DNA from: Eledone cirrhosa
Taxonomy: Eukaryota
Assembly: GCA_964016885.1 (NCBI GenBank)
Contig: OZ024748.1
Location: 46,066,001 to 46,130,000 of the forward strand
Direction: 5' to 3'
Length of the DNA: 64,000 nucleotides
Shown here: one piece after another, positions 1 to 63,355 of the stretch
Layout of the letters: each line of letters begins with the position of its first letter
Numbering within the stretch: position 1 is the stretch's first letter
The notes under the pieces: generated by a model
The model's database searches: none
What the model was told of the DNA's origin: nothing
What the model saw: the letters and a program-made list of their open reading frames with translations, nothing else
Made by a program: the position numbers and the translations under genes

Positions 1-2072
1 GTGTGTGTGTGTGTGTGTGTGTTTGCCTATCTATCTGTGTGTAATTGACGGCTGAGATAAAGGAGTACCAATATTGAAATAGAGTTTTCATATTCATATT
101 AAGTGAGTGTGTTAAGTTTGAAACAGCAGTTATATTTCCTTCCAATTTCATCTTAAAGTTTTAAAACAAGACAGTAAGTAGGGTGTCGTCTGCTGTCATA
201 ATATGTATGTATGTACGTATGCATATATGTGTGTATGCGTGTTTGTGTGTGTGTATGTGTGTGTGTGTGTGTGTGCGCGCGTGTGTTAGTATGTTTCTCT
301 TTCTCTTAATTTCGAGTACATTTTTGACCGGACACCTTCTTGTTGGCAAGGTTTTACAAGAAAAGAAATTGTCAACCCTTGATTCGCAAGAACGTTTTGC
401 AAATTTTGAAGGCGCCAGCTATCTCAGCCATTTGTAGTCTATGAATTTACGTACGTATGTATGTATGTAAGGATAAGGGTAATGAGCCCTTTTGCACACG
501 TTTAACAATGGGATTTGTACCAAGAATATTTCCAAGGCACAAGTCCATTTGTGGAAGACCTGCAGTCGCCCATGCATACCTGTCTCCCCTCTACATGTTA
601 ACGATGTTGCCCAAGGGGAAAGCAGTTGCCGATACGGCTTTTGAAATTGTTTAATTGCCTCTGTGTGTGTAATTGAACTGCATTAAATTTAATTAAATTA
701 AATTAAATTAAATTAAATTAAATTAAATTAAATCAAATTATATTTGATTATTTACTTTGAGTATCTACTATCGTACTATTATTGAGTTTTCGCGGTTACA
801 AAAATATAAACAAGTCGGGCCATTTAAGAATTTAGTGGGATCACCTCAGAAAATGAACACCAATTTGTTACTGTCCACGGAAACATTTGTAACTATATCT
901 GTAATTTTAACCGTTGGTCAATCAATGATAAACATTGACTGCCAAATAAATTAACTATGGTGATATAAAAGATACAGAAGCGAAAACCAACCATGTATAT
1001 ATATTAATATATATATATATATATATATATATATATATATATATATATATATATATATATATATATATATAAGTATGTACACGTACATACATATATGTAT
1101 ACAGACGTACAGTAGTATGTATATATATAAACATACATGCACACACATATATATATGCACGTATGGATTCACCGAACATTTATTATAATGCTTGGTGTGT
1201 TTGTAAACAAACATCGCGTATTAAACCGTAGTGTCCAGCAACCATCGTTGCTCGTTTGTTCAACACTGACAAAGGAACGCTGTACTAGTTCCAAGCTTAT
1301 TAGCTATCGTCAGCAACGTATACCTTCCTGCCAGATTGTTGAACGTATATACTTACCTTATGCATATTAACGGCTGAGTAGCCCAATTTGCATATAGAGT
1401 GGGTTAATCGGCCGGGTGCACCGAAAATGATAAACGGAAAAAATGAAACGAAATTTCATTTCCCACTCTTACTACGGCTGTTACTTAAATATAAGTATGT
1501 ACACGTACATACATATATGTATACAGACGTAATCGTTCCCCTTATTTACGTGTCCCAACGACTTTCTTTAGCCGTTGCTCGCACCAACCGGAAGTATATG
1601 GTCTTTAAAGCGATGAAATACCAATGAAGATCACTGATGAAGGTCTAAATGTATTCATATATATATATATATATATATATATATATATATATATATACAT
1701 TTATTAATATCATTGATATATATATATATATATATATATATATATATATATACATATATATATGTGTGTGTGTGTGTGTGTGTGTAAAAGTTAAACAGAA
1801 ATAACAACACAATCGATAGAGTATATGGAAGGGATATATTAGGTTAACGCTTGATATAGCAGGAAGAGGGTCTTAATGTTTCGGACGCTAGTCCTTCATC
1901 AGAAGAAAGAATGAGAAATAAGAGAGATTAAGGGGACGGGCCGGATGGAATTGGAAAAAATGTCTTTAGATAAAAATAATAGGTCCATTTATGTTGACAT
2001 ATATATATGTATATATATATATATAGAAATATTAAAAGAATGAAATTAAACAAAAAACGGTTAATTCATAGT

Positions 2073-2221
2073 AAAACTCATTATTTTACGATCGTTTCTG
2101 GGGGGTAATTCCCCGTATGTCCATTCTATTATTTACGTATGTAAAATATATTACAAAATATCATAGTAAGAAAATATACATACGTCTTCACTACCCGCCG
2201 TCTTCAGAAATAATGAGTTTT
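2073..2221 (-). ncRNA. Hammerhead with a stem/loop II of about 100 nt, family C
   Basis: 14-bp stem I aaaactcattattt/aaataatgagtttt, CTGAAGA, GAA-ACGATCGT-A. Relatives at 8850-8996(+, with its inverted twin) and decayed 13345-13480(-). Confidence 0.75.
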
Positions 2222-3841
2222 GTTTATTGAAGAATACAAAAAAACATACATATGAATAAATCTACCATTGACTGGTAGATTTGTGTGTGGGTGTGTCCCC
2301 CCGCAAGGACAGGCCTGGGGTTAAAGAAAACAACCATTAAACCGCAGATGATTTCTATCAACTGACATAGATTTATAGAAGTAGGTATTTATATATATGA
2401 ACCATAACAGAACGCCGGTTTGAAATCTCGAAATTTTGATATGTTAAGACGTCGAAATTTTGGATGAATTTTTATCTTTTAGCAAGACAAAACATGTTTT
2501 ACATAGCTAGATATTGTGTACAATCTTTAAATAAACCCCCAACATGCTGAAATGCTCAGCCTGTTATTACTTAATTGAGTAACGTTTGTATGGCAGTGTA
2601 ATATGAGCTATGGTGTTAACAGGTAATAAACGTTATCATACAATAAATCTTTTAAACTAACGATGCGTATCTTTTCTTCTGCGTTGTAAGTGAAATACAC
2701 CATTAATTTGTTCTTTAATGTCCATTTTTGTATTTTCTTCTTTTTTAAACATTCTAGAAAAGAACACGACATGTCAGAACTGATATGGCACACCAGAAGC
2801 CATTAGTATCACACTGTTACAACAGACTAAATATACATGCATACATATATACATACATATATGCATACATATATATACACGCGCGCGCACGCGCGCACAC
2901 ACACACACACACACACAAATATTTATATATATATAACAAATTATAAAATAAGAAGATGTATTAGACACAGATATATACCTATTTTTTCTTCAAAGTCCCG
3001 ACTGTATAGTTTAGCTGGTCAGTTTGTAACAGTTGCACATTATAGATGTGCAATGTTGTTGTGAGGTACACCAGCTTTTCAAGGAACTCCTCAGGGAAAG
3101 AACACTTTCCACACACGCTAATTTAATTATTTCGATTAATGAGTCTCTCGTAATCATAGAGCAAAATTGGTTACGGTCGAAACCACACACACTCACATGC
3201 TTGTGAAAATATATATACATACGTATGTATATATGTATACGCATGTATGTGTGTGTCTCTCATTGTATATATATATATATATATATATAAGATCAAAAGA
3301 TGGTTAAAAGAGTTCCATGTATTTTATTAAGCGCATTTCAAAAACAAATATCATCATGCAATAACATTTGCGTTTTCGTATATATGTTGATTTAAAACTG
3401 CACTATTCACAAGTGTGTTTTAACCTCCATATCATGTCTCCCTATTTTATCTGACCAAAAGGCAAATGTTATTGCATGATGATATTTGTTTTTGAAATGC
3501 GCATAATAAAATACATGGAACTCGTTTAACCATCTTTTGATATTATATATTATTTATACTCCTGTCCTAGAAACTGTAGAGTGGTACTTATCGGATATCT
3601 GCATTGCTTTATTGTACTACAATAAAACAACTCACCTCCTACATTATATATATATATATATATATATATATATATATATATATATATATATATATATATA
3701 TATATATATATATATATATATATATATATATATATATATATATATATAGTGGTGGAACACTGGAAGGTAATATCCGTAGTGATAGAGAACTAAGTCCATG
3801 GGACGAGTTAGGTAGAAGTTGTTACACAACAGTTAGTTCAC

Positions 3842-60796: not shown

Positions 60797-61265
60797 GCGC
60801 TGACTTTTGGGATGCTCCCATACAGCTCTGAGTTTTTCATCCTCAGTGTATACTGATTAATGTTCAGAGCCGTCCTCAGCATTCTCGTGTAGCACACATC
60901 CACCATCTGAGTGAGTTTCTTGGTCAGTGTCCAAGTCTCAGACCCATACAGCAGCACAGACTACACTACAGCAATGAAGAGGCGGATTTTCAGGTCTTTA
61001 CGAACGTCAGCTCAAAAGTAACACAGAGGAGACTGAGGTTGGCTGGACATGCTCACTGACATCCAGAGTTGACATTGCACTCAGTGCTCCTTTGGAAGCC
61101 CCTACATGGACACACTAGAAGAGGAAGACCAAGGTTAACGTATGTTGATGCCCTAAGGACAGACACTGGTCCGTTGGAGACGCAGGACCTGGCAGCGATA
61201 ATGAGGGACAGAGACCGCTGGAGAGAACTCGTCCATGGATCTCGGGAATTTTACCCGCCTTAGAA
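60797..61265. mobile_element. RTE-clade LINE 3' end with an inverted 5' segment
   Basis: Minus 60797-61010 reads KIRLF..V.SVLLYGSETWTLTK...YTRMLRTALNI...NSELY...PKVS; plus 61006-61262 continues KVTQRRLRLAGH...LLWKP.HG..RRGRPRLTYVD...DRDRWR. Confidence 0.85.
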
Positions 61266-61675
61266 TAGAATATATATATATATATATATATAAAATATAA
61301 ATTACACAATAATCAAAACTATATTCAAACATTTAATTGCTGTCAATCGTTTCTTCCAAACTTTCGGTGTGAATCATCTTTGCCTGTTGATATGCTTGTA
61401 AACCTGTGTTATTTTATGTGATACCTTTTCCACACAGTAATTATATATGCCTAGTACCATTGCTTCTTTACTACCTAGCTGTCCTGTGTATGCCTAACGC
61501 ATTTGCACTCTCTATACGCTTGCATATGTACTGCTATTGTCCTCGTTTTACGAGTAACTTTCTACCTTAATGCCTCTTTAATTATCATACTATTTCCTTG
61601 TAATCTCTGTTACATGCATTCCACTCTGTGCCTCTTGAATTATCATACTATTTCCTTGTAACCTCTGTCACATCA

Positions 61676-63355
61676 ATTCCACTCTGTAAATATGAAACAT
61701 TAATATCTATGTATCTATATGATTGTTCAGTTGAATAGGAAGTTAATTATATGCCCAAACTTTGCTAGTTCTCTGATAAATCCAAATGAAAGTTTGGAAG
61801 AAACGATTGCCAGCAATTAAGTGTTTTGAGCAAAGTTTTGATTATTGTGTAATTTATATTCCTGCTCTGTAAAACATCTGATGTATTTACATTGAGCTAT
61901 TTTTCTTACTGGTAATAAGGTAGTAATGAATTACTGAACTTTCCTGTTTATAGTTGTATATAGTGTATATAACTTTAAATAATATTATTATTATATATAT
62001 ATATATACATACATACATATATACATATATATACATATATATATATACATATATATACACATACATATATATATACATATATATATACATATATATATGT
62101 ATATATAAAAATACATATAGATATACATATATATATGTATATATATAAATACATATATATATATATATATATGTATATATCTAAATACATATATCTATAC
62201 ATATATATATGTATATATATAAATACATATATATATACATATATATATGTATATATATAAATAAATATATATATACAGATATATATGTATATATATAAAT
62301 ACATATATATAAATACATATATATATATACATATATATATAAATACATATATATATATACATATATATATATATATATATATATATAAATACATATATAT
62401 ATACATATATATTTATATATATATATATATGTATATATATATATATATACATATTTATATATACATACATATACATATATATATACATATATACATACAT
62501 ATATATATACATACATATATATATACATACATATATATACATATATATATACATACATATATATACATACATACATATATATACATACATACATATATAT
62601 ACATACATACATATATATACATACATATATATATATATATATATATATATATATATATATATATATATATATATATATATATATATATATATATATATAC
62701 ATATATACATGCATATATATATATATATATATATACACACATATATATATATTTAATTATGTAATAAACAACATAAGACAATTATTCCATTTACCAAATT
62801 TTTCACGAAGACACAAGCTCAACAGAGACGTTCATTCTGATGTGCGATTCCAGACATCTCTGTTGAGCTCGTGTGTCTTCGTGAAATCTTTGGTAAATGG
62901 AATAATTGTCTTATGTTGCTTATTACATAATTGTATAGCTATATAGCATACATAGAGCACTCTCCTTTCCTTTACCCTTCCTACTGAAATACTCCATATA
63001 GATATATATATAGATATATATATATATGAATTCCACTCTGTAAATATGAAACTGTTGATGACAACATTAATATCCATGTATCTATATGATTGTTCAGTTG
63101 AATAGGAAGTTAATTATATGCCCAAACTTTGCTAGTTCTCCGATGAACCCAAATGAAAGTTTGGAAGAAACGATTGCCAGCAATTAAGTGTTTTGAGCAA
63201 AGTTTTGATTATTGTGTAATTTATATTCCTGCTCTGTAAAACATCTGATGTATTTACATTGAGCTATTTTTCTTACTGGTAATAAGGTAGTAATGAATTA
63301 CTGAACTTTCCTGTTTATAGTTGTATATAGTGTATATAACTTTAAATAATATTAT
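61676..63355 (+). repeat. Direct duplication of about 310 bp (family M; 61676-61985 and 63029-63355)
   Basis: Near-identical blocks separated by (TA)n and a family J insertion. Confidence 0.85.
61762..61816 (+). ncRNA. Decayed hammerhead, family M (duplicated at about 63130-63185)
   Basis: CTGATAA / CCGATGA core variants, tccaaa/tttgga stem II, GAAACGATTGCC-agcaa. No copy has a fully intact core. Confidence 0.45.

What the first reader, a model, noticed from the sequence alone, without database searches (positions are those of the whole stretch)
1278..63185. About 16 families and about 40 copies of hammerhead-ribozyme mini-retroelements packed into (TA)n microsatellites
Seen: most unique islands between (TA)n tracts contain CUGANGA...GAAA cores with closing stems I, II and III. 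The sequences are largely unrelated, but they share a design in which stem III is often a short palindrome (ACTAGT, ACGT, ATGCGCAT, ATACGTAT, ACGATCGT, AGTACT, ATGATCAT). Established: minimal type I HHRs with palindromic stem III occur in PLE pseudo-LTRs and metazoan retrozymes and are thought to cleave as dimers. Inference: this is an unusually dense and diverse community (roughly one motif per 1.5 kb) of non-autonomous, PLE-mobilised, TA-targeting ribozyme elements. Ordinary annotation would mask it as low-complexity DNA. I cannot tell whether these families are already catalogued.
Basis: partly seen in the sequence, partly recalled or inferred. Interest (0 to 1): 0.88.

Follow-up and report, generated by a model that had tools for sequence, protein, structure and literature searches.

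The report
Penelope retroelement ends with hammerhead ribozymes
These islands are likely the cut-off ends of Penelope-type jumping genes that sit in TA repeats by the tens of thousands across this animal genome and carry a predicted self-cutting RNA motif; that kind of element is known, but one family has the motif's parts in a rearranged order that I found reported only from environmental RNA.

Summary
The motifs are real. The window holds 73 copies of 22 type-I hammerhead families (31 with an intact core, 18 mutated, 23 3' halves, 1 partial) and 2 copies of a rearranged (SGC-order) hammerhead. A descriptor gives 14 hits against 0.13 in shuffles, and the stems covary.

The reading needs correcting. 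11 of the 22 families trace to the 3' ends of protein-coding Penelope-like elements (Hydra- and Neptune-type). They are 5'-truncated and often head-to-head inverted, and (TA)n insertion with hammerheads is published for Hydra. The window is not special: about 220 hits/Mb against 175 in its flanks and 102 in a genome sample. Five exact patterns give 98,442 copies genome-wide.

Less ordinary: (1) a non-coding tandem family (units of about 630 nt, at least 5,938 copies) with an SGC-order hammerhead, which the scan found before on other DNA of this genome; (2) in 3 families the 5' ends pile up at or inside the ribozyme, not at its cleavage site. Cleavage is untested.

The parts
11380..12301 (-). 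3' end of a Neptune/Nematis-type PLE (F07): C-terminal GIY-YIG frame 11756-12301, hammerhead about 200 nt after the stop (core at 11550), then TA-rich repeat
   Evidence: PF01541, E 3e-4; 11 of 11 printed loci show stop, hammerhead, end
23072..25355 (+). Broken Hydra-type PLE frame (RWK, DKT, CxCX5C, CxxC, CxH motifs); its 3' UTR is cut off here, and in other copies it carries a CCGANGA-core hammerhead 1.2-1.4 kb downstream
   Evidence: 6 of 37
25467..26351 (+). 3' end of a second GIY-YIG PLE with the F10 hammerhead (26159-26234); further copies or tails at 7030-7108 and 48600-49125
1547..1649 (+). SGC-order hammerhead, family F17; this copy lacks 9 nt of one helix and is probably dead
30464..30574 (-). 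Second SGC-order copy, with several mismatches
5188..5379 (.). F11 head-to-head palindrome of hammerhead 3' halves; same family at 30134-30324, 33228-33446, 36300-36422, 54063-54264, 60244-60546
6388..6493 (-). Only full-length F11 hammerhead in the window (family core is the U3-A8 variant; mutated here)
4206..5160 (.). F12 (CAGANGA core) inverted pair; more copies at 10280-10336, 10542-10632, 22778-22824, 29972-30040, 35491-35570, 37018-37087, 59459-59592
3290..3642 (.). F03 (ATGCGCAT stem III) inverted pair with tail; more copies at 29474-29578 and 47842-47946; 3' end of a Hydra-type PLE
   Evidence: (3 of 23)
13141..13234 (+). F04 hammerhead (ATACGTAT); more at 43640-43931 (inverted pair), 51121-51215, 58680-58924; Hydra-type frame inside 3 of 3 long inverted insertions
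14467..14961 (+). F01 (ACTAGT), probably a tandem unit of about 450-480 nt; more at 1245-1325, 21729-21809, 22316-22396
   Evidence: (direct repeat 14473/14921)
16008..16078 (+). F02 minimal hammerhead (ACGT); more at 1837-1914, 31666-31742, 52601-52672
56166..56235 (+). F05 hammerhead; inverted pair at 47604-47746; 5' ends cluster just before the core
3813..3886 (-). F06 hammerhead (ACAATTGT type), 170-210 nt after a Hydra-type endonuclease frame in other copies
   Evidence: (2 of 9)
8652..9050 (.). F18 palindrome (ACGATCGT; 115-nt stem II), centre just before the core; relative at 2049-2213
53402..53617 (.). F14/F26 group (odd-length stem III); more at 62756-62930 and 31816-31923
38278..38357 (-). 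F16 (U3-A8 core, GCAA in place of GAAA in 3 copies); more at 5864-5942, 27131-27207, 43180-43232
55854..55951 (+). F09 (ATGATCAT); also 38817-38915; source not resolved
51416..51511 (+). F08 hammerhead; source not resolved
32322..33174 (+). F13, two tandem units 522 nt apart; the second has a complete type-I hammerhead (32828-32945)
38478..38605 (+). F33; further unresolved families F19 (34503-34564), F22 (26488-26777), F32 (54747-54853), F15 (61308-61361, 61771-61846, 63138-63213)

Best explanation
The islands are most likely 5'-truncated 3' ends of many Penelope-like retrotransposon families, plus a few likely non-coding tandem passengers, inserted into (TA)n, and each carries the predicted hammerhead that these elements keep near their 3' end. 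How it works: the element's endonuclease would nick both strands of a TA tract (published in vitro for AT-rich DNA; inferred here). Reverse transcription would start at one of two internal sites, which gives ends with or without a 50-90 nt tail (both forms are seen). Synthesis would usually stop early; in three families the stop lies at or inside the folded ribozyme (the pile-up is shown, its cause is inferred). Two such cDNAs joined head to head would give the palindromes. The template would be mostly uncleaved RNA, since few copies start at the cleavage site. The ribozyme likely processes the element's precursor RNA, as a dimer or with protein help, and most genomic copies are likely dead by-products.
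For: Excess over controls; all ten genome patterns gave 0 control matches. Covariation: 12 of 19 pairs change on both sides in 25 sequences, 0 of 500 shuffles reach the score, and a C-C mismatch not asked for by the pattern is present in 25 of 25. Position N7 varies freely. Upstream PLE frame without a TA tract between: F03 3 of 23, F06 2 of 9, F11 6 of 31, F14 6 of 37, F02 1 of 14, F05 1 of 69, F10 1 of 10, F12 1 of 21, F16 1 of 27; F04 in 3 of 3 long inverted insertions; F07 in 11 of 11 printed loci, which were chosen by the frame. Hydra motifs match the published definition; RVT_1 and GIY-YIG hits for the Neptune-type frames; the Hydra-type RT aligns to them (E 2e-9). Inversions: 69 of 90 F11, 38 of 52 F05, 28 of 70 F04 copies. 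Published: inverted copy, tail and (TA)n preference (PMC8557442); two RT start sites and uncleaved template (PMC11167929).
Against: 11 of 22 families have no frame link in my sample, and 5 links rest on one locus and could be nested insertions. Pfam gave no relevant hit for three Hydra-type frames. Covariation rows are related, which inflates the shuffle control; the measure counting pair types was not above shuffle (379 of 500). Monomer folding recovered the hammerhead stems well for F04, F03, F13 and partly F01, but not for F12, F05 or F11 (z 0.16, -0.73, -0.88). Several family cores deviate (CAGANGA, CCGANGA, GCAA). The 5'-end pile-up is absent in F01-F04 and F07-F09. No cleavage or expression data. 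How tightly the 3' ends abut TA was seen by eye and not counted.
Confidence: 0.82

Rival explanations
1. Most families are self-standing non-autonomous mini-retroelements (retrozyme-like) that need an intact hammerhead and borrow PLE enzymes.
For: The SGC family has tandem spacings of 616-679 nt in 5 loci (831 in a sixth) and no frame link in 45 copies; its 637-nt unit has no ATG-started frame over 70 aa. F01 and F13 show tandem units. F05 copies often start just 5' of the core, keeping it whole.
Against: 11 families lead upstream into PLE frames. In F11, 86 of 88 sampled copies lack the 5' half of the core; genome-wide 38,884 3' halves against 2,558 5' cores. Junctions differ from copy to copy.
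Confidence: 0.13
2. The motifs are leftover structure with no catalytic role, kept as a protein-binding or RT-recruiting fold at the element's 3' end.
For: Variant cores are fixed in young families. In the one PLE tested in vitro, cleavage was not needed for insertion and no reads ended at the site (PMC11167929). Few copies begin at the cleavage site (for example 7 of 80 F11, 3 of 64 F04, 0 of 22 F03).
Against: Core letters, a non-G at position 17 and the C3-G8 or U3-A8 pairing are kept across about 30 different stem I sequences (these hits were selected by the descriptor). The tested PLE hammerhead does cleave with protein.
Confidence: 0.04
3. Chance matches in AT-rich, palindromic, low-complexity DNA.
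For: 17 of 54 CUGANGA words are expected by chance, and some are in LINE or unrelated sequence.
Against: and the zero controls of all genome patterns.
Confidence: 0.01

Closest known systems
Hydra-clade PLEs (Craig et al. 2021, PMC8557442; abstract, passages and section 11 read)
   Same: C-terminal GIY-YIG frame with RWK, DKT, CxCX5C, CxxC and CxH motifs; canonical hammerhead; insertion into (TA)n; inverted 5'-truncated copy; tail at one end
   Different: Described from a small number of families. Here the 3' UTRs run to 1.0-1.4 kb and the truncated ends number in the tens of thousands per family group. No tree was built.
Minimal PLE hammerheads (Cervera and de la Pena 2014, PMC4209133; parts 1-2 of 4 read)
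   Same: Type I, palindromic stem III, many families per genome, mostly single truncated copies, pairs on opposite strands, U3-A8 variant
   Different: Reported counts were thousands per genome (about 9,000 in Xenopus); here at least 98,442 by five exact patterns. Also stems II up to 115 nt and CAGANGA, CCGANGA, GCAA variants.
Type-SGC hammerheads (Eckert et al. 2023, PMC10085705; passages read)
   Same: Order cleavage site, then GAAA, then CUGANGA; pseudoknotted; covarying stems I and III
   Different: Reported from metatranscriptomes, none in genomes of known organisms. Here it is in animal DNA, and stem II appears to be bridged by upstream strands instead of pairing directly. Cleavage untested.
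Metazoan non-LTR retrozymes (PMC7229834, passages; bioRxiv 10.64898/2026.07.22.740005, part 1 of 5)
   Same: Non-coding tandem units with a hammerhead, thought to be PLE-mobilised; fits F17, F01, F13
   Different: Most families here are not tandem units; the F17 unit is longer (about 630 nt) and its motif is not type I.
PAc Poseidon element in vitro (Frangieh et al. 2024, PMC11167929; parts 1-2 of 4 read)
   Same: Both-strand cleavage of AT-rich DNA, two RT start sites that define the tail, uncleaved RNA as template
   Different: 5'-end pile-ups at the ribozyme are not described in the parts read.

Membership tests
Type I hammerhead ribozyme | Core CUGANGA / GAAA / UH in type-I order with three stems, above chance | tested here: met
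Type I hammerhead ribozyme | Covariation in stems I and II | tested here: met
   for the F04/F08 group only; rows are related
Type I hammerhead ribozyme | Site-specific self-cleavage | not testable with these tools
   needs an in vitro assay
Penelope-like elements | RT plus GIY-YIG frame upstream of the hammerhead-bearing end | tested here: met
   11 of 22 families; not found for the other 11
Penelope-like elements | Inverted 5'-truncated partner and optional tail | tested here: met
Hydra clade | RWK, DKT, CxCX5C linker, CxxC and CxH, no CCHH | tested here: met
   read by eye from window 23072-25216 and L126; L182 and L155 are homologous and share the linker, but L182 reads EKT
Hydra clade | Placement in the Hydra clade of an RT tree | not tested
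   no reference set was fetched
Hydra clade | Insertion into (TA)n | tested here: inconclusive
   ends run into TA in printed copies and hits follow TA content; no count against a control and no empty sites
Non-LTR retrozyme (community as a whole) | Non-coding tandem units, each with a hammerhead | tested here: not met
   tandem spacing without a TA tract essentially only for F17 and F13 (F01 with a short tract)
Non-LTR retrozyme (F17) | Non-coding tandem unit | tested here: met
Non-LTR retrozyme (F17) | Circular RNA in vivo | not testable with these tools
   no RNA data
Type-SGC hammerhead | Block order S-G-C with stems I and III closing | tested here: met
   both-side changes in 4 of 7 stem I and 2 of 5 stem III pairs; 19 of 20 rows were chosen for pairing in these two stems
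Type-SGC hammerhead | Stem II formed directly between the strands beside GAAA and CUGANGA | tested here: inconclusive
   only one direct pair (75% paired); two bridging helices are 82-86% paired with 1 of 4 and 2 of 5 both-side changes
Type-SGC hammerhead | Cleavage at the predicted site | not testable with these tools
   needs an assay
Naiad PLE (source of F17, from earlier notes) | N-terminal endonuclease frame linked to the motif | not tested
   no Naiad query was used; no link to my C-terminal-endonuclease frames in 45 copies

The most novel reading that the evidence does not exclude
This genome carries roughly 300,000 hammerhead motifs, far denser than any count in the papers I read. Among them is an active, non-circularly permuted hammerhead with a rebuilt stem II that drives a non-coding retroelement in an animal genome. 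The ribozyme fold also acts as a stop for the Penelope reverse transcriptase, so tens of thousands of junctions record where cDNA synthesis ends and how the inverted repeats of these elements form.
Probability: 0.4. Interest if true: 0.75.

Novelty: new variant of a known kind. Interest (0 to 1): 0.5.

Why it matters
In kind this is known biology that repeat masking hides. Three things give it value. First, scale: about 100 descriptor hits per Mb makes PLE ends a large part of the TA-rich DNA. An Octopus vulgaris annotation lists 893 'unclassified SINE' families among recently active ones and never uses the word ribozyme (PMC13282606, passages); many such families may be PLE ends (inference, not checked). 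Second, the SGC-order family would move a motif known from environmental RNA into animal DNA. Third, the 5'-end pile-ups and the two 3' ends give countable genomic evidence on the unsolved PLE insertion cycle, which can now be tested with the published in vitro system.

Tried and rejected
Rfam: 0 hits at gathering score; the top 150 of 497 E-value hits were mostly miRNA models on AT-rich palindromes, all below gathering. Type III topology: 1 of 31 hits in 380 kb, and that one was a mutated type I. A CUGANGA core close to the F11 3' half: only 21 scattered matches; the real core is the U3-A8 variant about 60 nt upstream. A pile-up of 5' ends at the cleavage site: not seen (the F05 row there was mostly spurious matches). 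A universal 5'-end hotspot: rejected, present only in F05, F11, F12 and weakly F06; F18 gave no reference. A fixed cDNA length as the cause: not supported, since the F18 palindrome centres lie about 125-130 nt before GAAA (2 centres). Sequencing runs: no RNA holder listed. The homologue search gave mostly unnamed proteins (55 hits). Lunse et al. on dimer cleavage is not held; I saw only its title and the summary in PMC6765202 (passages). Paper searches with no description of these families: hammerhead + octopus + ribozyme, hammerhead ribozymes + genome-wide + cephalopod (0 papers), type-SGC + hammerhead (1 paper), Penelope-like + twin priming + inverted (2 unrelated papers). Dfam and Repbase could not be checked, and no supplements were read; those of PMC8557442 list Octopus Naiads and could bear on novelty. 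Singletons at 37825(+), 3094(-) and 13290-13500(-) look like decayed hammerheads but were left out of the counts. A count of 3'-end positions against TA flanks and a direct check of the F01 unit remain open.
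Full report
Observation. The window is 10% (TA)n tract and lies in a 3.0-Gb genome. The host is probably a cephalopod; that is an inference from genome size and repeat landscape and was not established. CUGANGA occurs 54 times against 17 in shuffles, and a strict type-I descriptor gives 10 hits against 0.1. A wider descriptor gives 14 hits against 2 in 15 shuffles together. 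Mapping with family references gives 73 copies in 22 families: 31 with an intact core, 18 mutated, 23 3' halves, 1 partial. Rfam has no match at gathering score.

Is the window special? No. The same descriptor finds 35 hits in 200 kb of flank and 100 hits in 98 spaced 10-kb stretches, with 0 in the reversed and 0 in the shuffled control. Hits follow TA content (Spearman 0.52). The window (about 220/Mb) is about twice the sample mean. Exact patterns give a firm floor: 78,718 (F03/F04), 7,012 (F05), 4,216 (F02), 2,558 (F11 core) and 5,938 (SGC family), together 98,442, each with 0 control matches. Counts in the papers I read are over 6,000 in a coral and up to 120,000 in the axolotl (PMC7229834) and about 9,000 in Xenopus (PMC4209133).

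Are they hammerheads? In 25 distinct F04/F08-group sequences (25 of the 32 listed, with two window references substituted or added), 89.5% of cells pair, 12 of 19 pairs change on both sides, and no shuffle of 500 reaches the covariation score. A C-C mismatch at the 4th pair of stem II is invariant although the pattern did not ask for it. Relatedness inflates this control, and the count of pair types was not above shuffle. Among 135 hits outside the window, stem III is palindromic in 107, N7 takes all four letters, and variant cores occur: CAGANGA 6, UUGANAA 6, CCGANGA 2. The U3-A8 variant is published. Monomer folding supports F04, F03 and F13 but not F12, F05 or F11. Cleavage is untested.

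What carries them? Inside the window, the hammerhead at 11550 lies about 200 nt after the stop of a GIY-YIG frame. All 11 printed relatives show stop, hammerhead, then one of two ends followed by TA. The frame at 23072-25216 has the published Hydra motifs, and Hydra elements are reported to have hammerheads and to insert into (TA)n. Across all loci, a PLE frame ends upstream without a TA tract between for F02, F03, F04, F05, F06, F10, F11, F12, F14 and F16 (counts in the best explanation). With F07 that is 11 of 22 families. Five links rest on one locus; a sixth single hit (F15) was judged accidental. F01, F08, F09, F13, F15, F18, F19, F22, F26, F32 and F33 stay unlinked; F01 and F13 show tandem units. 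Inverted partners are common (69 of 90 F11, 38 of 52 F05). Inversions, tails and truncation are PLE hallmarks, and the tail has been explained by two internal RT start sites.

Where copies begin. In F11, 86 of 88 sampled copies start 3' of the 5' core, 61 of them within a 17-nt stretch inside stem II (the hairpin there blurs the exact base). Genome-wide, 3' halves outnumber 5' cores 38,884 to 2,558. In a young F05 subfamily, 2,230 copies reach the first core base but only 568 reach 15 nt further. Twenty of those that pass extend a median of 325 nt (some are arms of one insertion). That is roughly 9% loss per base at the ribozyme's 5' border against about 0.2% beyond. In F12, 17 of 40 copies start within -7 to +6 of the first core base. 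F01-F04 and F07-F09 show no such peak. Few copies start at the cleavage site, which fits uncleaved RNA as template. The likely cause is that the folded RNA, or its refolding behind an RT without RNase H, ends synthesis, and that two cDNAs from both nicked strands are then joined. This step is inference; local palindromes that favour joining are an alternative.

The rearranged family. An earlier scan note led me to test the two window copies whose CUGAUGA has no GAAA after it (1634 +, 30479 -). Their order is cleavage site, GAAA, CUGANGA, which is type SGC of Eckert et al., reported from no genome of a known organism. A generic scan gave 10 hits in 1.18 Mb (9 of this design) against 2 in the reversed control. 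In 20 sequences (19 of 21, two truncated rows dropped, the second window copy added), 18 of 35 pairs change on both sides and 0 of 500 shuffles match. Stems I and III and one pseudoknot helix are well supported; the two helices that would rebuild stem II are weaker. The family forms tandem units of 616-679 nt without a long frame, so it is the clearest non-autonomous member. Both window copies are damaged. The Naiad link claimed in earlier notes was not tested.

Verdict. The community is mainly truncated ends of known kinds of PLE, found genome-wide, and the scan has noted the same picture and the SGC family elsewhere in this genome. The scale, the SGC variant and the 5'-end pile-ups keep the interest moderate.

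Noticed in passing
window 28354-28947 (+): 197-aa frame that looks like the restriction-type endonuclease end of a non-LTR element (recalled resemblance; no Pfam hit)
   Followed up: no
window 17817-18591 (-), 60529-60960 (-), 61009-61260 (+), 19522-19800 (+): Fragments that look like LINE frames (Tx1- and RTE-like, recalled); two CUGAGGA words lie in one of them and are not hammerheads
   Followed up: no
window 35206-35496 (-): Short frame resembling the end of a Helitron/PIF1 helicase (recalled; no Pfam hit)
   Followed up: no
window 15210-15323, 17083-17292, 26849-26954, 32137-32308, 37186-37306, 44465-44656, 55271-55625: Two families of tRNA-like SINEs interleaved with the hammerhead families
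   Followed up: no
L040:9352-9523; several matches: F11 ends joined directly to the inside of a PLE frame or to another family's hammerhead, which suggests template switching or nested insertion
   Followed up: partly
window 38278-38357, 27131-27207, 5864-5942: F16 has GCAA in place of GAAA in many copies and is linked once to a frame 96% identical to the query; a natural core variant worth assaying
   Followed up: partly
F01, F05, F06, F12: A U-U pair at the base of stem II recurs in several families (8 of 33 types)
   Followed up: no
window 4380-5011 and 10704-10895: F12 3' UTR has internal tandem repeats of about 135 nt; F08 has similar ones at 50465-50872
   Followed up: no
window 16275-16614, 27822-28160, 31300-31588: Repeat family with CA-rich tails and no clear hammerhead
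   Followed up: partly
window 47292-47472: Palindrome (F24) that appears to be the part 3' of a hammerhead seen further upstream in L005 and L009
   Followed up: partly
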